From a virus (Duplodnaviria; Heunggongvirae; Uroviricota; Caudoviricetes): a stretch of 9,710 nt of DNA. A model generated the notes under the pieces. That model had not been told where the DNA came from. It did no database searches and saw only the letters and a program-made list of their open reading frames with translations. This document shows positions 1 to 9,710 of the stretch, piece after piece; position 1 is the stretch's first letter, and every line of letters starts with the position of its first letter. The stretch lies in the IMG/VR virus record IMGVR_UViG_2531839663_000002; one strand, written 5' to 3'. The position numbers and the translations under genes are program-made.

Positions 1-156
1 TTGCATCAAGAACAGCAGTGTCAGCCCTAGGCTCTCGGACTTTGTACCGCTTATCTTGTCTTCAAAAATCAGCTCGCCTCCTGCACAGTTCAACGCATTA
101 CGTTGTAGATCGATTTTCTGGTCATTTGTTGATACGAAAACATAGCCAATAAGCAT
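1..156 (-). CDS. Serine DNA invertase (Pin/Gin/Hin family), 5' portion only; gene runs off the left window edge; carries the same Arg-to-Phe change as the right copy
   Basis: Minus strand of 1..156 is identical to 2203..2358, so it encodes MLIGYVFVSTNDQKIDLQRNALNCAGGELIFEDKISGTKSE...; start codon at 156..154 preceded by a GAGGGAG Shine-Dalgarno. Not in the ORF track because it is open at the edge. Confidence 0.7.
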   Translation of the reverse strand, partial: MLIGYVFVSTNDQKIDLQRNALNCAGGELIFEDKISGTKSESLGLTLLFLMQ

Positions 157-182
157 GGTAGCTCCCTCTGACAAAAGCAGGA

Positions 183-725
183 ATGATGCCATTTTCTCGT
201 TATTTCTGCATTTTCATAAACGTTGGTTTGGGAGAAGGCTCTGCATTACCGGTTGGGGTGCCTGTTCCGTGGCCTTCAGCCACTCCGCCAACAGGCTGGC
301 TGAAATGCAACGGTGCCGCTTTTTCTGCTGAAGAATACCCGGAACTGGCAAAGGCTTATCCGACAAATAAATTGCCTGATTTACGTGGTGAGTTTATTCG
401 TGGCTGGGATGACGGGCGTGGTATTGATGCTGTACGTGCCTTGCTAAGTCTTCAGAATGGAGGAGTGGAATCACACACCCACCAAGGGCAGCTCTTCAGA
501 GTTAGTGATTATCGTACAAAAGAAATACCAGCATCAGAAGTTATGGGAAGAGGATATATTGCAAGCCTGACGCCGGGTGCTGATAGCCCACTTGATTTTG
601 ATGATTATTCTGTATCTTCTAATCCAAATGGATATTTTGTCGGGAATCAGAGAACAACAGCATATGGGATAAATGAAACCCGTCCACGGAATATTGCATT
701 TAACTATATCGTGAGGGCTGCCTGA
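183..725 (+). CDS. Phage tail-fibre C-terminal (variable, receptor-binding) module; orphan segment with no constant N-terminal part upstream
   Basis: 180-aa ORF with tail-collar-like PVPWPSATPPTGWLKCNGAAFSAEEYPELAKAYP...DLRGEFIRGWDDGRG and terminal NIAFNYIVRAA typical of tail-fibre C-termini. First 18 codons lie in the repeat; in-frame stop at 159..161, so no upstream fusion is possible. Stop overlaps next start (TGATG at 723..727). Confidence 0.7.
   Translation: MMPFSRYFCIFINVGLGEGSALPVGVPVPWPSATPPTGWLKCNGAAFSAEEYPELAKAYPTNKLPDLRGEFIRGWDDGRGIDAVRALLSLQNGGVESHTHQGQLFRVSDYRTKEIPASEVMGRGYIASLTPGADSPLDFDDYSVSSNPNGYFVGNQRTTAYGINETRPRNIAFNYIVRAA
211..236. other. Putative invertase crossover site (hix/gix/pix-like), left copy
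   Basis: Reverse complement reads TTCTCCCAAACCAACGTTTATGAAAA, resembling remembered 26-bp sites hixL TTCTTGAAAACCAAGGTTTTTGATAA and gix TTCCTGTAAACCGAGGTTTTGGATAA (shared TTC..AAACC.A.GTTT..GA.AA). Sits at the inner end of the long repeat. Confidence 0.6.
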
Positions 726-2427: not shown

Positions 2428-4317
2428 TTAATCGTGTTTTGGCCATACTTTCAATGCAATTTCCCCCAACTTTTTACCCCGCTCCAGGATTTCACCCTCA
2501 TCCCATTTATCCTTAAGTATAAGTGGTATGTTCAGTCGTAGATTGGTGTGGACGATGAGAGCATCACGTTTTTTCAGAAATACAGCATTCTGAACAGAAC
2601 GGTTTACGCTAAGGTTAAGCAAAGTTAGATTTCCCAACGTAGCTATCGCTTGTTGCCGTTTCCTTACCAGTAGCTGCTCAGGGGTAAGATCTGTTCCAGA
2701 CAGAACAATTTGGTTCAATACCGTTGCATCTGAATTTGTCACCATATGACCATTTTCGAGAGGCCAACAGGAATACCAACTTTGAGGCATAAGATGATCG
2801 ATATCGAGATTGGAAAGATTTGGAACATCAGGCTTCTCTGTCTTCACTTGGCGACAAAGTTCTCTTTCAAGTTCCGTTAACATTGAGCGCATTTTCGGTG
2901 CGTCGAGCCTGCCAGGATAAAGTGGAGCATTGATGCAAGCATTGAGAAATTCTGAGTCACCAGGCCAACGTGAGGCTTCGCCATTTAAGCTATTGAGGAT
3001 ATTACGTAACTCAACACTGGAAATTTCCGTTTTAGACAAGTGCCGCAATACATTCATAAATACATTGTTGTAATTCTTTGGCGTCAGGCCACATACGGCT
3101 CTTCGTACTACGTAGGAGACAAGATCATTATACATGGCTGCTTTCTCATCATCGGCGATATTAGCTATCGAAATGAACAAAGCAAGCGGATAAAGTGTCG
3201 TCACATCATAGGCTGCGATGCGATGTCCAAAGTGTGAGATGGGGGTTGTGCCAAAACCACCAACTAATTCTTTATATTGTGATGCATATTGTTTGAGGCG
3301 CTTTACTTGCAGATCAGCTCGTTGTGAAGGCAAGTCCTTACTTACATAATCACGATACTCATTGTAAAGACGAGACAGATCAATTTCACGTTGCCTTTCT
3401 GATTGCAATGTCGCATGCACTAGCCACTCCATGCGTGGTTTATTAATACGTCCACGGCGTTGCCTTTCCGACCAGTATGTATCTTCAAAGCTCTTCCACT
3501 CATTTTCATATAATTCAATAGCATTAATATTTTCATGCTCAGCGCACATAAAGATGTAGTTGCGAATAAGATCCGTGGCATGAAGTTCCGCCCCTCGGCC
3601 ATTTAATGTTTCAAAAATTATTTGGGCATCATCTTCAGCTTCGAGAAATATGCTTACCAGTTTCAGATCCGTCAAGACAGCCTCAATTAGTGCTACAGCA
3701 TTTTCATGTGGTGAGTACTGTTCTATTTTAATCCATTTTATAAAGGCTTCAGTAAAAAACCATAATGCCTCTAGTGACGGCGGGTGGTTGAAATGTTTAC
3801 GTAACGTACCATGTTGCGTGAAGCTATCAGAAAATACATCACGGAGATCGTCAATGTTTTCAACATTAAAACTTTGAATAAAATGAGTTTGGTCTCGAAA
3901 AGTTGGCCACAGTTTGAAGCATTCTACCTTTTTATTTCGCATAGTTGCTTCGTTTGTATTTTTCAAGCAAGTCAATACTAACCCTTCCAAATCAGAAAGG
4001 CCTGTAGCACGCAATGATAATCGAATGGATGCCAGAATATATTGAAGAGTGGTTAAACGTTGCTGGCCGTCAATAATATGTATGGTATCTACACCTAACA
4101 AGCTGTTTTTGAGTTGAGGTTCCAGCACCACCGCGCCAAGGAAATGGGGAGTTGGTTTTGTTCCCAAAAGTCGGCTATGTGCTTTTTCGAAGATATCCTC
4201 CAGCAAAGCTGACCATTGGTTTTGTTGCGTCCATACGTAGGCACGTTGATAGAATGGAACACGATATTGTCGTTGATTTTGGAAAAGTTGCTGGATGGTT
4301 AGCGTTTCGGATTTCAT
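2428..4317 (-). CDS. GmrSD-family type IV (modification-dependent) restriction endonuclease, DUF262 + DUF1524 architecture
   Basis: 629-aa ORF. N-terminal region has the DUF262 hallmark DGQQR (aa 83-87, ...IHIIDGQQRLTTL) with upstream YRVPFYQRAYVW; C-terminal region has an HNH/His-Me-like DIDHLMPQSW ... NLTLLNLSVNRSVQN pattern typical of DUF1524. Confidence 0.8.
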   Translation of the reverse strand: MKSETLTIQQLFQNQRQYRVPFYQRAYVWTQQNQWSALLEDIFEKAHSRLLGTKPTPHFLGAVVLEPQLKNSLLGVDTIHIIDGQQRLTTLQYILASIRLSLRATGLSDLEGLVLTCLKNTNEATMRNKKVECFKLWPTFRDQTHFIQSFNVENIDDLRDVFSDSFTQHGTLRKHFNHPPSLEALWFFTEAFIKWIKIEQYSPHENAVALIEAVLTDLKLVSIFLEAEDDAQIIFETLNGRGAELHATDLIRNYIFMCAEHENINAIELYENEWKSFEDTYWSERQRRGRINKPRMEWLVHATLQSERQREIDLSRLYNEYRDYVSKDLPSQRADLQVKRLKQYASQYKELVGGFGTTPISHFGHRIAAYDVTTLYPLALFISIANIADDEKAAMYNDLVSYVVRRAVCGLTPKNYNNVFMNVLRHLSKTEISSVELRNILNSLNGEASRWPGDSEFLNACINAPLYPGRLDAPKMRSMLTELERELCRQVKTEKPDVPNLSNLDIDHLMPQSWYSCWPLENGHMVTNSDATVLNQIVLSGTDLTPEQLLVRKRQQAIATLGNLTLLNLSVNRSVQNAVFLKKRDALIVHTNLRLNIPLILKDKWDEGEILERGKKLGEIALKVWPKHD

Positions 4318-4874: not shown

Positions 4875-5336
4875 ATGATTAACTTTACTGAAATTGATAG
4901 TGACGGTGAAGCCTGGGAGTCATTTGCCCGTGATTTTCTTGAAGAACTTGGCTTTTATATTGAATCCGCGCCAGATAGAGGTGCAGATGGAGGTAAAGAT
5001 CTTTTAATCACAGAGCAATTGCAAGGTCAGTTAAATAAATATAAATTTCGTTGGCTTGTTAGCTGTAAACATTATGCAACAAGTAAAAAATCAGTTTCAG
5101 AAAAGGATGAGATTAATATACAAGAACGTATTGATGGATTCAATGCCGACGGATTTATTGGATTTTACTCAACACTGCCAAGTAGTGGTTTAAATTCAAG
5201 AATGACGCAATTAAAAGAGAATGGAAAAATAAAGGACTTTCGATTCTTTGATGGTAAATTAATTGAAAATCACTTAGTCAGAATTGGTTACTCAAAACTA
5301 CTCCTTAGATACTTTCCTGAGAGCTATAAAAAATAA
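4875..5336 (+). CDS. Small stand-alone Mrr-cat-like (PD-(D/E)xK fold) restriction-endonuclease domain protein
   Basis: 153-aa ORF with GGGAG Shine-Dalgarno about 8 nt before the ATG. Motifs GADGGKDLL (4980..5006) and FRWLVSCKHY resemble the Mrr catalytic core (GDGGIDL ... QCKRY). No N-terminal DNA-binding domain. Confidence 0.65.
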   Translation: MINFTEIDSDGEAWESFARDFLEELGFYIESAPDRGADGGKDLLITEQLQGQLNKYKFRWLVSCKHYATSKKSVSEKDEINIQERIDGFNADGFIGFYSTLPSSGLNSRMTQLKENGKIKDFRFFDGKLIENHLVRIGYSKLLLRYFPESYKK

Positions 5337-5347
5337 AACCCAAGCAT

Positions 5348-5785
5348 TTGATTTTTGATAAGTACTTACCTATAAAATGTGATCGTTGTGGAAAGGACTT
5401 AATAGAAAACCATCATGAAGAAAATTATGATGGCATTGTGTGCAATGCAGAGATCATACACGATGACAAACCAAATGAGGTGATAGCGGTTTATTATGCG
5501 TGTAAAGGTGATTGTGATAAGCATTTTGAGGATTATTTTTGGAATGAATATAAAGCGATTACGAGATGGCAGGATATAAGTGATCTAGCCATCCCATTAT
5601 TCTATCTCAAATGGATTATGGGGACATTTAATGAACTTGAGTATGGAAGGAAAACATATACCAAAGAAGCCTTCAATAAAACAAAGGAGATAACATTAGC
5701 GCTATCTCAAATTGTTATGAGAGAAATGACAGAAAAAGAAAGAGAAAGAGTGATGGCTTTGAATTCACTACCTGATTACATATAA
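5348..5785 (+). CDS. Cys-rich hypothetical protein (possible C4 zinc ribbon), likely co-transcribed with the upstream Mrr-cat gene
   Basis: 145-aa ORF starting 12 nt after the upstream stop, same strand. Only a TTG start is in frame and no clear Shine-Dalgarno is seen. CxxC (CDRC) plus CxxxC (CKGDC) could form a zinc ribbon; no recognisable family. Confidence 0.5.
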   Translation: MIFDKYLPIKCDRCGKDLIENHHEENYDGIVCNAEIIHDDKPNEVIAVYYACKGDCDKHFEDYFWNEYKAITRWQDISDLAIPLFYLKWIMGTFNELEYGRKTYTKEAFNKTKEITLALSQIVMREMTEKERERVMALNSLPDYI

Positions 5786-5991: not shown

Positions 5992-6594
5992 ATGAACACG
6001 TCACCGTGGAACAAAGACCGTATCATCGGCCAAAAAAGACCACTTCAGATATCTCATATCTGGGGGATCCGAATCCGGCTTGAACTGGAAGGTAAAACGC
6101 GCGATTTAGCTCAGTTCGATATGGCCCTGGACAGTAAGCTACGAGGCTGTGATCTGGTCAAACTCAAAGTATCTGATGTTGCATATGGTAGCTCTGCTTC
6201 AAGCAGAGCTACGGTGCTGCAACAGAAAACCGGTAGCCCTGTGCAGTTTGAGATAACCAAAGGGACAAGAGAAGCTGTTGCTGCATTGATAATGCTTGGC
6301 AATTTGCATAGTAAAGACTTCTTGTTTCGGTTTCTGGTCGGAACTAATTAGCTCATATCTACCCGGCAATACAACCGAATTTTTCATGGGTGGGTAGAAA
6401 AGCTTGGTCTCGAAGATTCGCTTTACAGCACTCATTCCATGAGAAGAACAAAACCTTACCTGATCTACAAGAAAACCAAGAATCTTCGGGTGATCCAACT
6501 TCTGTTGGGCCATAAGAAACTGGAAAGCACAGTCCGTTATCTGGGTATTGAAGTAGATGATGTGTTAGAGATCTCTGAATCGATTGAAGTCTAA
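5992..6594 (+). pseudogene. Compact (~200 aa) tyrosine recombinase/integrase (catalytic domain only) interrupted by an in-frame TAG at 6349..6351
   Basis: One frame runs 5992..6594 with a single TAG at 6349..6351. Before it: LRGCDLVKLKVSDV...QQKTGSPVQFEITKGTREAV (box I Arg). After it: HSMRRTKPYLIYKKTKNLRVIQLLLGHKKLESTVRYLGIEVDD (H-x-x-R, His, RY Tyr). The downstream part is missing from the ORF track only for lack of a start codon. Confidence 0.8.
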
Positions 6595-6600
6595 GGTTGT

Positions 6601-6622
6601 CAGGGCTGCAACAACAGCCCTG
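6601..6622 (+). other. GC-rich stem-loop just after the recombinase stop codon
   Basis: CAGGGCTG (6601..6608), loop CAACAA, CAGCCCTG (6615..6622); no following T-tract, so not a canonical intrinsic terminator. A TTGACA hexamer follows at 6633..6638. Confidence 0.35.
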
Positions 6623-6717
6623 TGCCAGGAGTTGACACTGTTAGCATCGCGCTATGTTAATTTATGTTGAGCAGTTAAAAATGATAATGTAGTTTATATG
6701 GATAATCAGTTTATAGA

Positions 6718-7599
6718 GTGGGTGAGATGGAACTAGATGAAACACTTGAAGTTATCAAAAATAATTTTAGTAATAATCAGAAGAAACTATTTAAAAGGAT
6801 TGAGCCAGCCACTAACCGTCAAGTAGCTATCGGTCTTATTAGTTTACAAGGAGTGGAAAAAACATCTCAGGCTGAGATAGAGGTAATTGCCGGCCTCATA
6901 TCTCAGTTTAGTCCATTGGAAATCGATAGTTTTCAAAATTCACCACGACGAATAACTCTGAAAGGTCAATTCCCAAACGGACATATTGTTTATATCGAGC
7001 CTCAGTATAAGGTTGGCAATATAAACCCAAAAGCCCAGCCTTGGGCAATAGACCTTGTCCTTAGACTAAATAGATGGATTGGTCAAGATTTGGTTGAGAT
7101 TGCTGCTATTGGCATCGAGTATGATGGCCACATAGCTCATTATGTGGAAAGTAAAATTAAGTCTACTTACAAGCGTGATGCAGTAATAACTAGTAACGAA
7201 GGATTTCAATCGATTAGGATCTCACCAGAACAATGGAAATCGTCTAAAGAGGATCTTAAGAAGGCAATTAAAAAGTATTTTGAACATCACATAAAAAAAA
7301 TTGAAAAAGTTCAACTAAGCACAATAAACGCCCAAAATTTCAACAATTTTATTTATGAAAATGAAAATGAAGTGATATCCACTGTAACTTGCCCTTTATG
7401 TAATGGAAAAGGCAGTTTAGCGGGAGAAGATTGTCCGATCTGTAATGGAATGGGATCCGTAAAAAGATATATTGCTGCAAAGGTGAATCTTTCTAATTAT
7501 GAAAAATTCACTTGTCCTGACTGCAGGAATATAAAATTAGATTGCAGAACCTGCAATGGTGAAGGATCAATTAGCAGAGAAAAAGCATTAGAAATGTAA
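6718..7599 (+). CDS. Fusion protein: DUF559/Vsr-like PD-(D/E)xK nuclease domain plus C-terminal DnaJ-type CxxCxGxG zinc finger
   Basis: 293-aa ORF (GTG 6718 or ATG 6727 start, ambiguous). Central AIDLVL...AIGIEYDGHIAHY...KRDAVITSNEGFQSIRIS matches the DUF559 pattern (IExDGxxH ... RDxx ... GxxxxR). C-terminus has CPLCNGKG, CPICNGMG, CPDCRN, CRTCNGEG (about 7390..7566), as in the DnaJ cysteine-rich domain. Confidence 0.7.
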   Translation: MGEMELDETLEVIKNNFSNNQKKLFKRIEPATNRQVAIGLISLQGVEKTSQAEIEVIAGLISQFSPLEIDSFQNSPRRITLKGQFPNGHIVYIEPQYKVGNINPKAQPWAIDLVLRLNRWIGQDLVEIAAIGIEYDGHIAHYVESKIKSTYKRDAVITSNEGFQSIRISPEQWKSSKEDLKKAIKKYFEHHIKKIEKVQLSTINAQNFNNFIYENENEVISTVTCPLCNGKGSLAGEDCPICNGMGSVKRYIAAKVNLSNYEKFTCPDCRNIKLDCRTCNGEGSISREKALEM

Positions 7600-7904
7600 T
7601 GATAAAAGTAAACCTAAATAATTTAGTGTAATGTCTGCTTTTCGCTCATAACAGACATAAACTTCAGTTATGGCATAAAGGTATGCATGCTGGGTGGGGA
7701 AAGTATGAAGGAAAAGAAGACTGCTGCGCCGTTTGTCGTCACGTTTATCTTCATTGGCTATGTAAGTCGTAATACAAGGTGGGACAAAACTGAGACACAT
7801 AAGGCCTCGCAATGGCTTGCAAGGCTTTACATGTTTTGATGTGGTGGGACGTGTGAGCGCAGTGTTGATGGGGTAATGCTTTGAATTAGAAGCGGATTCT
7901 TATA

Positions 7905-7950
7905 ATTCGTAATGCGAAGGTCGTAGGTTCGACTCCTATTATCGGCACCA
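7905..7950 (+). other. 3' fragment (~46 nt) of tRNA-Thr(CGU), thrW-like; attachment-site remnant marking the end of an integrated element
   Basis: ATTCGTAATGCGAAGGTCGTAGGTTCGACTCCTATTATCGGCACCA matches the 3' part of E. coli thrW as remembered (anticodon-loop CGT, T-arm GGTTCGACTCC, acceptor end with CCA). Sequence upstream of 7905 does not match the tRNA 5' half, so this is not an intact gene. Confidence 0.75.
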
Positions 7951-8637: not shown

Positions 8638-8804
8638 CTAGAGACAAAGTCGCTTACTTAGCTTCCCTGTTTCGATGTTGCAACTCACATATTTTTAACT
8701 TTCAGAATGTGTTACCCAATAGTTCGTGCTAATGCTACTATTTGTATTCAATCGGATTAATGATGTTGTTACGCGAGTCCATTGAACTAAACATAAGGGA
8801 GTAT

Positions 8805-9330
8805 ATGGGGTTAGCTGAAACATTAGTTAGTATTCCGCAGTCTGAAAGAGGCGGTGAGATTGCTCAACGTGGGTTTGACTATCAAACTTGCTGGGCTTTA
8901 TCTCAAATGCTGGAATATGAACTAGATGAAAAGAACTATGTGTTTATCTTCGAATATCATGATGATGTTCTTATTCTTGATGACGAAGTTTCTCCAACAC
9001 AACTCACATTTGCTCAAGTAAAAACAAGAGAGAAACACTGGACTGCATCCACTCTTAGTAATAGCACCAAGAAGAACCCAATATCTATCATCGGTAAGTT
9101 ATTTATTCATCAAAAGAATTTCGCCGAATATTCACCCAAGCTCCTTTTTGTTACTAATGCTTCTTTCAATCTATGTGAGGAAAACGGTGGTAAGTCTTGT
9201 TTTGGTGCAAATGAAGTCAAAGTGGAGTATCAGACGAGCTTTAAGAAAGCAATCAAAGATCAAGTAAAGCTTGATGACTCCAGTATCGATCTTTCTGTTA
9301 TGCGTTTCGTTCAATCCTCATTAAGCCTAG
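8805..9330 (+). pseudogene. PD-(D/E)xK-like nuclease-domain gene (resembles DUF4297-type domains of defence proteins), 3'-truncated by IS5
   Basis: ATG at 8805 with AAGGGA Shine-Dalgarno at 8795..8800. Motifs GFDYQTCWAL, EYHDDVLILDD and FAQVKT fit a D...(E/Q)xK core. The frame continues into the IS5 terminus from 9331; the last residues GKVRTSP are IS-encoded, so the native C-terminus is missing. Confidence 0.6.

Positions 9331-9710
<380 letters not shown>

What the first reader, a model, noticed from the sequence alone, without database searches (positions are those of the whole stretch)
6718..7599. Unusual fusion of a DUF559/Vsr-like nuclease domain to a DnaJ-type four-repeat zinc finger
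The IEYDGH...KRDA...GFQSIRIS core is characteristic of the DUF559 restriction-endonuclease-like fold, while the C-terminus has the CxxCxGxG repeats normally seen in DnaJ-family chaperone zinc fingers. It is a stand-alone gene with its own candidate promoter (TTGACA at 6633..6638), the last gene before the island boundary. I do not recognise this combination; it could be a single-protein defence effector or a DNA-damage or protein-sensing nuclease.
Basis: inference. Interest (0 to 1): 0.75.

Follow-up and report, generated by a model that had tools for sequence, protein, structure and literature searches.

The report
Vsr-like nuclease with DnaJ-type zinc module
A small, intact gene in an E. coli prophage encodes a DNA-cutting enzyme core joined to a two-zinc module of the kind found in the DnaJ chaperone; its relatives sit alone in integron cassettes, prophage defence slots and defence islands, so it is most likely an undescribed and untested single-gene anti-phage nuclease.

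Summary

- **Zinc module.** Residues ~219-290 resemble the DnaJ cysteine-rich domain. All eight Cys are invariant among the 21 close homologs. Three of the four motifs are canonical CxxCxGxG.
- **Thresholds.** Neither half reaches Pfam's curated cut-off, and no Pfam, NCBIfam or PADLOC model covers the protein.
There is also an N-terminal helical extension and a 45-residue basic linker helix.

The family is rare: about 40 clusters in the representative library and 8 of 5426 complete E. coli genomes. It has no conserved partner gene. It occurs as a single-gene Vibrio integron cassette, as the first cassette beside an integron integrase, in a P2-like prophage slot, in a P1/P7-like element, between Gabija and AbiGi, and here in a prophage-end slot that other strains fill with restriction-modification genes, a retron or AbiTii. 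The same zinc module is fused to HNH nucleases.

Best reading: a stand-alone defence nuclease whose zinc module is a shared input or regulatory domain. The function is untested and I found no literature on it. The proposed promoter is not supported.

The parts
6727..7599 (+). Coding sequence, 290 aa plus stop (the longest ORF starts at GTG 6718)
   Evidence: ORF list. RefSeq CDS of the 99.9% identical copy starts at the ATG. Homolog N-termini align to MELD. GC is about 35-39%, lower than the window's tail-fibre end at about 43-50%.
6727..6852 (+). N-terminal helical extension (aa 1-42, three helices), specific to this family
   Evidence: Model helices 6-15, 19-28 and 34-41 with pLDDT above 90. 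Conserved FSNxQKKLF...AIGLISLQG. No profile hit.
6853..7224 (+). Vsr/DUF559-type PD-(D/E)xK nuclease core (aa 43-166). Candidate catalytic residues E50, D109, E131, D133, H138 and R150/D151 (ATG numbering; add 3 for GTG numbering)
7225..7368 (+). Long lysine-rich helix (aa 167-214) joining the nuclease core to the zinc module
   Evidence: Model helix 170-214 in GTG numbering. It is the most basic segment of the protein, mean net charge +3.3 across the family.
7381..7596 (+). DnaJ cysteine-rich-domain-like two-zinc module (aa 219-290). CxxC motifs start at aa 222, 236, 263 and 273. Conserved C-terminal tail ISREKALE
   Evidence: Pfam DnaJ_CXXCXGXG covers profile positions 1-65 of 65, E 2e-6. 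NCBIfam DnaJ models hit this region only. PDB DnaJ 1exk E 4.8e-5 and Anti-TRAP. Eight invariant Cys. 18 of 38 relatives hit PF00684.
6601..6622 (+). GC-rich hairpin (CAGGGCTG-6 nt-CAGCCCTG) after the stop of the upstream recombinase remnant; separates the two genes
   Evidence: Sequence. It is the only element kept in the centroid structure. It has no T-run, so it is not a canonical terminator.
6632..6637 (+).
   Evidence: Exact position. No -10 at 16-18 nt spacing; the promoter scan found nothing here.
7629..7700 (+). Start of the flank shared with about 140 E. coli genomes that lack the gene; the right edge of the variable cargo block
   Evidence: Megablast: 8 genomes carry the whole query and 141 more match only query 1025/1030-1101, which is window 7624/7629-7700.

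Best explanation
The gene encodes a stand-alone, horizontally mobile anti-phage nuclease. Shown: the protein has (i) an N-terminal helical extension; (ii) a Vsr/DUF559-type PD-(D/E)xK core with its acidic/histidine motif set conserved across the family; (iii) a long basic helix; (iv) a C-terminal DnaJ-CR-like module with four CxxC pairs, enough to bind two zinc ions. It has no conserved partner gene, and it travels as single-gene cargo of integrons, prophage hotspots and defence islands. Inferred: the nuclease core is the effector and cuts nucleic acid, most likely DNA, in a metal-dependent way. The zinc module is an exchangeable input or regulatory domain, because the same module is fused to unrelated HNH nucleases and is missing from about a quarter of the wider relatives aligned. 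In DnaJ and Anti-TRAP this module binds proteins, and here it is not basic. I therefore favour a model in which it binds a phage-derived or infection-induced protein ligand and so licenses or targets the nuclease. The long helix may mediate dimerisation, DNA contact, or both. Whether cutting is aimed at phage DNA or also kills the host (abortive infection) is unknown.
For: Solitary and mobile: a single-gene cassette between roughly 125-nt attC-like repeats in a 17-23-copy Vibrio parahaemolyticus array; the first cassette beside a bona fide integron integrase, TIGR02249 at 467 bits; neighbours differ in every locus.
Defence context: a P2-like prophage slot between gpA/Ogr and the portal gene; between full-length GajA/GajB and AbiGi; beside a SIR2 protein; in a P1/P7-like element; between BrnT and HEPN genes in P. 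aeruginosa. In E. coli it sits in a prophage-end slot with GmrSD, Mrr-type and GIY-YIG nucleases, a slot that holds Dcm plus a type II restriction enzyme plus AbiTii, or a retron Ec67, in other strains.
Module exchange: the zinc module is also found on HNH_2 proteins with 1-6 copies and on one PDC-M01B sub-model. One such HNH protein lies directly downstream of an OLD-TOPRIM/UvrD (Gabija-like) pair. Eight or more relatives keep the nuclease but lack the module. The zinc module has near-neutral charge.
Confidence: 0.55

Rival explanations
1. It is a Type IV-like or structure-specific restriction nuclease. The protein recognises modified, mismatched or otherwise unusual phage DNA directly, and the zinc module plus the basic helix are DNA-binding or dimerisation elements, not a protein sensor. 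This is still defence, but with a different input logic.
For: It is a solitary nuclease with no methyltransferase in any locus. In the window it sits beside GmrSD and an Mrr-type gene, both Type IV classes. Its closest solved relative by name, Vsr, reads a DNA lesion. The linker helix is basic. Relatives without the zinc module exist, so the core may be self-sufficient.
Against: No known modified-base reader domain was detected. The zinc module is near neutral in charge, and its characterised homologs (DnaJ CR, Anti-TRAP) bind proteins. The reuse of the module on HNH nucleases in up to six tandem copies looks more like a ligand-binding array than a DNA-reading head.
Confidence: 0.2
2. It is a toxin or addiction gene. 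The nuclease is a growth-inhibiting toxin that stabilises integron arrays or prophages, or acts in inter-bacterial conflict, with phage defence incidental or absent.
For: Vibrio superintegrons are rich in toxin-antitoxin and toxin/immunity cassettes. Neighbouring cassettes include Tse2-like ADP-ribosyltransferase, deaminase and Tdi1 immunity genes. BrnT and HEPN genes flank the P. aeruginosa copy.
Against: No conserved adjacent small antitoxin or immunity gene: the Vibrio cassette holds this gene alone. There is no secretion or delivery domain. The gene is intact in 8 E. coli genomes at 99.4-99.9% identity, and in this window it stays intact while two upstream genes are disrupted.
Confidence: 0.1
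3. It is a selfish homing-type endonuclease. Like I-Bth0305I, a Vsr-fold 'EDxHD' enzyme, it would cut a specific target site to promote its own spread, with the zinc module acting as a DNA-binding or linker element.
Against: It is never inserted in, or next to, a conserved target gene, intron or intein, and its contexts are unrelated. No homolog exists in 50,697 phage records. In Vibrio its mobility is explained by attC-type cassette sites.
Confidence: 0.05
4. It has a non-catalytic or housekeeping role. It would be a degenerate nuclease fold used for nucleic-acid binding (RAP-like RNA binding) or a Vsr-like repair activity, with no role in conflict.
For: RAP domains, which are RNA-binding, are close structural neighbours. 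Sequence similarity to active nucleases is weak.
Against: The acidic/histidine motif set is invariant across relatives of about 20% identity, which argues for catalysis. The gene is rare and patchy (8 of 5426 E. coli genomes), AT-rich and carried on mobile elements. No Dcm-type partner is adjacent, as Vsr would have.
Confidence: 0.05

Closest known systems
Vsr / DUF559 branch of the PD-(D/E)xK nucleases (E. coli Vsr 1cw0; NGO0050 3hrl; E. coli YcjD, PF04480/PF18741; I-Bth0305I 3r3p)
   Different: No PF04480 hit, and the MTES_1575 score is below threshold. It has a longer hairpin between the D and ExD strands, an added N-terminal three-helix extension, a long C-terminal helix and a zinc module. 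It has no Dcm partner and is not intron- or intein-borne.
DnaJ cysteine-rich (CR) domain, PF00684 (E. coli DnaJ 1exk), and its small relatives such as Anti-TRAP
   Same: Four CxxC pairs with DnaJ-like spacing and order. The profile is covered end to end. PDB sequence hits to 1exk and Anti-TRAP.
   Different: No J domain and no DnaJ C-terminal domains; DnaJ NCBIfam models score about 30 bits against cut-offs of 338-619. The third motif lacks GxG. It has shorter inter-motif loops and a conserved ISREKALE tail. It is attached to a nuclease.
HNH nucleases carrying the same zinc module (HNH_2 + 1-6 x DnaJ_CXXCXGXG, 400-560 aa), including one sub-model (PDLC04253) of the PADLOC candidate protein PDC-M01B
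   Same: The C-terminal zinc module is homologous: E 6e-15 to PDLC04253 positions 269-362, with many hits. The logic is the same, a nuclease followed by zinc module(s). The contexts are also mobile or defence-related, e.g. downstream of an OLD-TOPRIM/UvrD (Gabija-like) pair, or next to an integrase and a 1573-aa AAA_22-domain (weak Pfam hit) protein.
   Different: The nuclease is of an unrelated fold (His-Me finger against PD-(D/E)xK). Those proteins often have several tandem modules. PDC-M01 is defined as a two-gene candidate, whereas this gene is solitary. None is experimentally characterised as far as I could find.
Single-gene integron-cassette defence proteins built from a nuclease fused to another domain (Epona, Divona, Damona, Sirona, Nemetona; Darracq et al., bioRxiv 10.1101/2024.07.02.601686)
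   Same: Compact single-gene size, location in Vibrio chromosomal integron cassettes, and the nuclease-plus-accessory-domain design.
   Different: Different nuclease families and different partner domains. That paper does not mention a zinc or DnaJ-type module. Those systems have phage-resistance data and this one has none.
Type IV (modification-dependent) restriction enzymes such as GmrSD and Mrr
   Same: A solitary nuclease without a methyltransferase. It shares the same prophage slot with a GmrSD and an Mrr-type gene.
   Different: No recognisable modified-DNA reader domain, and no evidence of modification dependence.

Membership tests
DUF559 / Vsr-like endonuclease (PF04480, PF18741) | Profile match at or above the curated Pfam score | tested here: not met
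   No PF04480 hit at E <= 1. PF18741 MTES_1575 scores 21.4 bits against a cut-off of 38.2. Only 4 of 38 relatives hit MTES_1575 at E <= 0.01. True DUF559 proteins hit both models.
DUF559 / Vsr-like endonuclease (PF04480, PF18741) | Vsr-type PD-(D/E)xK core fold | tested here: met
DUF559 / Vsr-like endonuclease (PF04480, PF18741) | Conserved motif set D ... ExDG..H ... R...G...R in the right order | tested here: met
   Invariant D109, E131, H138 and nearly invariant D133, G134, R150, D151. These align with D49, E60, D62, G63, H66 and R76 of a YcjD-family profile. The statistics are weak: E 0.009 / 0.004, probability 4-9%.
DUF559 / Vsr-like endonuclease (PF04480, PF18741) | Metal-dependent endonuclease activity | not testable with these tools
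   Needs purified protein and cleavage assays.
DnaJ cysteine-rich domain (PF00684 DnaJ_CXXCXGXG) | Profile match at or above the curated Pfam score | tested here: not met
   28.3 bits against 32.7, E 2.2e-6, with profile positions 1-65 of 65 covered. 18 of 38 relatives hit at E <= 0.01. One 88%-identical homolog has PF00684 precomputed.
DnaJ cysteine-rich domain (PF00684 DnaJ_CXXCXGXG) | Four CxxC pairs (eight zinc-ligand cysteines) | tested here: met
   C222/225, C236/239, C263/266 and C273/276 (ATG numbering), all invariant in 21 homologs. 25 of 38 wider relatives have four motifs.
DnaJ cysteine-rich domain (PF00684 DnaJ_CXXCXGXG) | All four repeats of the full CxxCxGxG form | tested here: not met
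   Motif 3 is CPDCRNIK in the window and lacks GxG across the family. Motifs 2 and 4 are canonical and motif 1 is usually CxxCxG.
DnaJ cysteine-rich domain (PF00684 DnaJ_CXXCXGXG) | Binding of two zinc ions, with motifs 1+4 and 2+3 paired | not testable with these tools
Needs metal analysis or a solved structure.
DnaJ/Hsp40 chaperone | J domain plus C-terminal client-binding domains | tested here: not met
   DnaJ NCBIfam models match only aa 215-292 with 17-31 bits, against cut-offs of 338-619. No J domain in Pfam.
PADLOC candidate PDC-M01 (protein B) | Full-length match to a PDC-M01B model, which has an HNH core of about 280 aa | tested here: not met
   Only aa 179-292 match positions 269-362 of one sub-model, PDLC04253. 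True members P0113 and P0133 match end to end and hit about 25 sub-models.
PADLOC candidate PDC-M01 (protein B) | Conserved partner gene (PDC-M01A) | tested here: not met
   Neighbours differ in every locus examined, and the Vibrio cassette contains this gene alone.
Integron gene cassette | A single ORF bounded by attC-type repeats, or lying next to an integron integrase | tested here: met
   Met for homologs: L003 repeats at 7806-7930 and 8857-8984 within a 17-23-copy array, and L007 beside TIGR02249 IntI with a hairpin after the stop codon. Not met for the E. coli window copy: the upstream recombinase is a generic 200-aa Xer-like remnant, and no attC was recognised.
Anti-phage defence gene | Recurrent co-location with known defence genes or hotspots | tested here: met
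   GmrSD, Mrr_cat and an LmuA remnant in the window. GajA/GajB plus AbiGi. SIR2. A P2 gpA/portal slot. The E. coli slot is alternatively filled by restriction-modification genes, AbiTii or a retron. This is a qualitative survey of about ten loci, not a statistical test.
Anti-phage defence gene | Measured protection against phage | not testable with these tools
   No experiment was found in the literature searched. Getz et al. 2025 (V. parahaemolyticus integron cassettes) is not held.
Type IV restriction enzyme | A modified-DNA reader domain and modification-dependent cleavage | tested here: inconclusive
   No SRA, YTH, DUF262-type or similar domain was detected. The N-terminal extension and zinc module have unknown ligands. 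Cleavage specificity is not testable here.

The most novel reading that the evidence does not exclude
The DnaJ-CR-like zinc module would be a previously unrecognised infection-sensing domain of bacterial immunity. On this reading it is a chaperone-derived decoy or client-binding module that recognises a phage protein, for example one that engages the host DnaK/DnaJ machinery or a non-native structural protein. It would switch on whichever nuclease it is fused to: the Vsr-like core here, HNH in over a hundred other protein clusters. That would define a new family of modular single-protein defence systems spread by integrons and prophage hotspots.
Probability: 0.12. Interest if true: 0.85.

Novelty: new variant of a known kind. 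Interest (0 to 1): 0.6.

Why it matters
If confirmed, this would be a compact 290-aa single-gene defence system with a domain combination in no current catalogue. It would also give a function to a zinc module that recurs on many HNH nucleases and on a branch of a PADLOC candidate system. Because DnaJ-type zinc modules are known as protein-binding devices, it offers a tractable test case for how a minimal nuclease is kept silent and then triggered by infection. It also shows the same small gene moving between three kinds of defence-carrying vehicle: integron cassettes, P2/P1-type prophage slots and an E. coli prophage-end hotspot. If it proves to be an ordinary Type IV-like nuclease or a toxin, the value drops to annotating a small family of hypothetical proteins.

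Tried and rejected
- **Direct DUF559 assignment by sequence.** No PF04480 hit. phmmer of the core against PDB sequences gave only noise. hhalign of the family profile against single YcjD or Vsr sequences was not significant. Only a profile-profile comparison with a YcjD-family alignment gave a weak, correctly registered match.
- **Membership in PDC-M01B.** Rejected: only the C-terminal zinc module matches.
- **PF27659 as a possible defence-specific domain.** It is CHP02642, the Pfam form of a phage zinc-finger family.
- **Full-length structural analogue.** None in the PDB (Foldseek) or BFVD. The AFDB library was unavailable.
- **Promoter at TTGACA.** Not supported. The 5' region shows no unusual RNA structure, z -0.46, and the window has no Rfam family.
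- **Integron origin of the E. coli copy.** The upstream recombinase is not an integron integrase, and no attC was recognised.
- **Homologs in sequenced phages or plasmids.** None in phages. In plasmids only zinc-module hits turned up, one of them DnaJ itself.
- **The 289-aa protein in the same last slot in strain LR-17-1.** Unrelated; it is AbiTii.
- **Literature.** Nothing on the accession, on PDC-M01 function, or on CXXCXGXG modules in defence. The three integron-defence preprints I could read mention no such protein. Getz et al. 2025 could not be read.
- **tRNA at the island edge.** None found in the window.
Full report
**1. The observation**

An uninterrupted ORF runs from GTG 6718 to the stop at 7597-7599 (293 aa). 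The real start is probably ATG 6727, giving 290 aa. RefSeq annotates the 99.9% identical gene of strain E275a from that codon, and the homologs begin at the corresponding Met. Residue numbers below count from this ATG; add 3 for the GTG frame.

The C-terminus has four CxxC pairs: CPLCNGKG, CPICNGMG, CPDCRNIK and CRTCNGEG. Three are full CxxCxGxG and the third is degenerate. It has no usable -10 partner, so the promoter claim is not supported. A GC-rich hairpin at 6601-6622 separates the gene from the recombinase remnant upstream.

**2. Domain content**

Library profiles see both halves only weakly.
- Pfam DnaJ_CXXCXGXG covers aa 225-283 over the whole model, at E 2e-6 but 28.3 bits against a cut-off of 32.7.
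- The restriction-endonuclease-like model MTES_1575 covers aa 107-184 at E 2.6e-4, 21.4 bits against 38.2.
- PF04480 (DUF559) itself gives nothing.
- NCBIfam DnaJ models hit only the zinc region, at a tenth or less of their cut-offs.

An AlphaFold model built on 21 homologs is confident (mean pLDDT 86.9). It shows three N-terminal helices, an alpha/beta core, a 45-residue helix and a C-terminal zinc-knuckle region.

In an alignment of 38 relatives reaching about 20% identity, the invariant positions are E50, D109, E131, Y132 and H138. D133, G134, R150 and D151 are nearly invariant.

As a membership test I built a DUF559 profile from relatives of E. coli YcjD. Those proteins carry both PF04480 and PF18741. 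hhalign gives a weak match (E 0.009, or 0.004 for the core alone), but the register is correct:
- Q93 with Q40
- D109 with D49
- E131 with E60
- D133 with D62
- G134 with G63
- H138 with H66
- followed by the R...G...R segment

The centre is therefore a distant Vsr/DUF559-type nuclease with a conserved catalytic motif set. It is not a member of PF04480 by Pfam's own threshold.

The zinc module is supported by several results:
- eight cysteines invariant in the 21 close homologs
- four CxxC motifs in 25 of 38 wider relatives
- PF00684 hits in 18 of 38 relatives
- PDB sequence hits to the DnaJ cysteine-rich domain 1exk (E 4.8e-5) and Anti-TRAP

There is no J domain, so this is not a DnaJ chaperone.

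**3. The family**

The word-indexed search found 31 full-length relatives of about 290 aa in E. coli, Vibrio, Photobacterium and Pseudomonas, nearly all named 'hypothetical protein'. The exhaustive profile search of 1.84 billion cluster representatives found 210 proteins at E <= 0.001. They fall into three groups:
- about 40 full-length clusters;
- a set of roughly 240-aa relatives that keep the N-terminal extension and the nuclease but lack the zinc module;
- more than a hundred proteins that match only the zinc module.

Those in the third group that I scanned are HNH nucleases (HNH_2 or HNH) followed by one to six DnaJ_CXXCXGXG modules. Some belong to a single sub-model (PDLC04253) of the PADLOC candidate protein PDC-M01B, whose other sub-models are plain HNH proteins of about 280 aa.

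The window protein hits PDLC04253 only over that C-terminal module (E 6e-15), so it is not a PDC-M01B member. PF27659, precomputed on two close homologs, is CHP02642, the Pfam form of a phage zinc-finger family.

The pattern is an exchangeable zinc module attached to two unrelated nuclease folds, and dispensable for the Vsr-like core.

**4. Genomic context**

No partner gene is conserved: the neighbours differ in every locus.
- **Vibrio parahaemolyticus.** The gene sits alone between two roughly 125-nt repeats (TAACAAAGC...GCGTTA) of a 17-23-copy array with about 1-kb spacing. That is a single-gene cassette of the chromosomal integron.
- **Photobacterium phosphoreum.** It is the first gene beside a divergent, bona fide integron integrase (TIGR02249, 467 bits against a cut-off of 265), with a hairpin after its stop codon.
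- **Vibrio splendidus.** It lies in a P2-like prophage between the gpA/Ogr genes and the portal gene. From my own knowledge, this is the position where P2-type phages carry variable anti-phage cargo.
- **Pseudomonas capsici.** It lies between a full-length Gabija pair (GajA 1330 bits, GajB 1092 bits) and an AbiGi protein.
- **Two metagenomic contigs.** It follows a ParA-like ATPase and a SIR2 protein related to ThsA/DSR.
- **A third contig.** It lies in a P1/P7-like element.
- **P. aeruginosa.** It lies between BrnT and HEPN genes in a variable region.

In E. coli it is present in 8 of 5426 complete genomes. It lies at the tail-fibre end of a prophage whose tail and baseplate genes are annotated (tape measure, DNA circularization protein, baseplate J/gp47), after GIY-YIG or GmrSD and Mrr-type nucleases. 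In other strains the same slot, defined by the shared flank that begins near 7629, holds either a Dcm methyltransferase, a type II restriction enzyme and AbiTii, or a retron Ec67.

The gene is AT-rich at about 35-39% GC. There is no homolog in 50,697 phage records, and only zinc-module hits in plasmids.

The HNH + zinc-module proteins also lie in such places. One is directly downstream of an OLD-TOPRIM/UvrD (Gabija-like) pair. Another is next to an integrase and a 1573-aa protein with a weak AAA_22 hit.

**5. Mechanism**

Shown:
- the architecture;
- the conserved motif set;
- the eight zinc-ligand cysteines;
- the solitary, mobile lifestyle;
- the company of defence genes;
- the reuse of the zinc module on other nucleases.

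Inferred:
- The Vsr-like core is an active, metal-dependent endonuclease that acts as the effector.
- The zinc module is an input or regulatory domain.
- This module binds proteins in its characterised homologs (DnaJ, Anti-TRAP) and is close to neutral in charge here, while the linker helix is the basic element. So it more likely recognises a protein ligand produced during infection than DNA.
- The long helix may serve dimerisation or DNA contact.

I put about 0.55 on 'stand-alone defence nuclease with the zinc module as input domain'. I put about 0.2 on the variant in which the protein reads unusual DNA directly, like a Type IV enzyme. Smaller weights go to a toxin, a homing endonuclease, and a non-catalytic or housekeeping role.

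The main weaknesses:
- There is no experiment.
- The context survey is small and qualitative.
- Sequence statistics for the nuclease assignment are weak.
- Nothing explains how a solitary nuclease spares its host.

**6. Comparison with what is known, and novelty**

The protein works like the single-gene 'nuclease plus accessory domain' defence proteins recently found in integron cassettes and like solitary restriction nucleases. It is not a member of any named family among them.

It fails the curated thresholds of PF04480/PF18741 and PF00684. It is not a DnaJ and not a PDC-M01B. It has no model in Pfam, NCBIfam or PADLOC 2.0. I found no paper on it, or on DnaJ-type zinc modules in defence. One directly relevant paper (Getz et al. 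2025) could not be read, so prior experimental testing of the Vibrio cassette cannot be excluded.

I rate it a new variant of a known kind, with interest 0.6. It is a clean, testable candidate with an unusual and recurrent sensor-like module, but it is unvalidated and belongs to a crowded class.

Noticed in passing
window 2428-4317 (-): Full-length GmrSD-type Type IV restriction enzyme: GmrSD_N + GmrSD_C, and PADLOC mREase_IV at 1481 bits end to end. It occupies the position after the truncated pin invertase where other strains carry a GIY-YIG protein.
   Followed up: partly
window 4875-5785 (+): An Mrr_cat-type restriction endonuclease gene is split into two ORFs by a 1-nt deletion in an A-run (A7 to A6, near 5327-5333), relative to the intact 303-aa gene of strain E275a. 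This could be a pseudogene, a slippage-prone tract or a sequencing error.
   Followed up: partly
window 5992-6594 (+): A small (200-aa) Xer-like tyrosine recombinase gene carries an in-frame stop at 6349-6351. It is intact in E275a, is below all NCBIfam cut-offs, and is not an integron integrase. Its role next to the defence cargo is unknown.
   Followed up: partly
window 8742-9353 (+) and 9363-9710: The N-terminal half of a Lamassu LmuA (Cap4_nuclease/DUF4297; PADLOC LmuA 347 bits, model positions 1-175 of 361) is cut off by an IS5-family element. Strain LR-17-1 has the same arrangement.
   Followed up: partly
window 1-237 and 2122-2358: A perfect 237-nt inverted repeat brackets two oppositely oriented sets of tail-fibre tip and assembly genes, next to a truncated pin-type invertase ORF (2167-2394). 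This is an invertible host-range segment. The left arm touches the window edge, so it may be longer.
   Followed up: no
L009 2804-6411 and L015/L016 3295-6833: Two different zinc-module nucleases, the Vsr-like P0027 and the HNH-type P0068, each lie immediately next to an OLD-TOPRIM ATPase + UvrD-helicase pair. In L009 PADLOC confirms full-length GajA/GajB. The L015/L016 pair is called Gabija-like from Pfam domains only and was not scanned with PADLOC. This could be defence-island chance or a functional link; I did not test it statistically.
   Followed up: partly
P0047, P0049, P0068, P0091 and others: A sizeable, apparently uncharacterised group of 400-560-aa proteins combines an N-terminal HNH_2 nuclease with up to six tandem DnaJ_CXXCXGXG/Anti-TRAP-like zinc modules.
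   Followed up: partly
L021 1-6818 (E. coli LR-17-1) and hits H19-H23: The prophage-end slot upstream of the shared flank is a variable defence hotspot. Its cargo alternates between GIY-YIG, Dcm + type II restriction enzyme, DUF6650, AbiTii, DUF262/GmrSD, retron Ec67 and the gene studied here.
   Followed up: partly
L003 3476-4285 and neighbouring cassettes: The same V. parahaemolyticus integron array carries an SRA_ScoMcrA + HNH cassette, plus Tse2-like ADP-ribosyltransferase, deaminase and Tdi1-like immunity cassettes. The array therefore mixes defence and toxin/immunity cargo.
   Followed up: no
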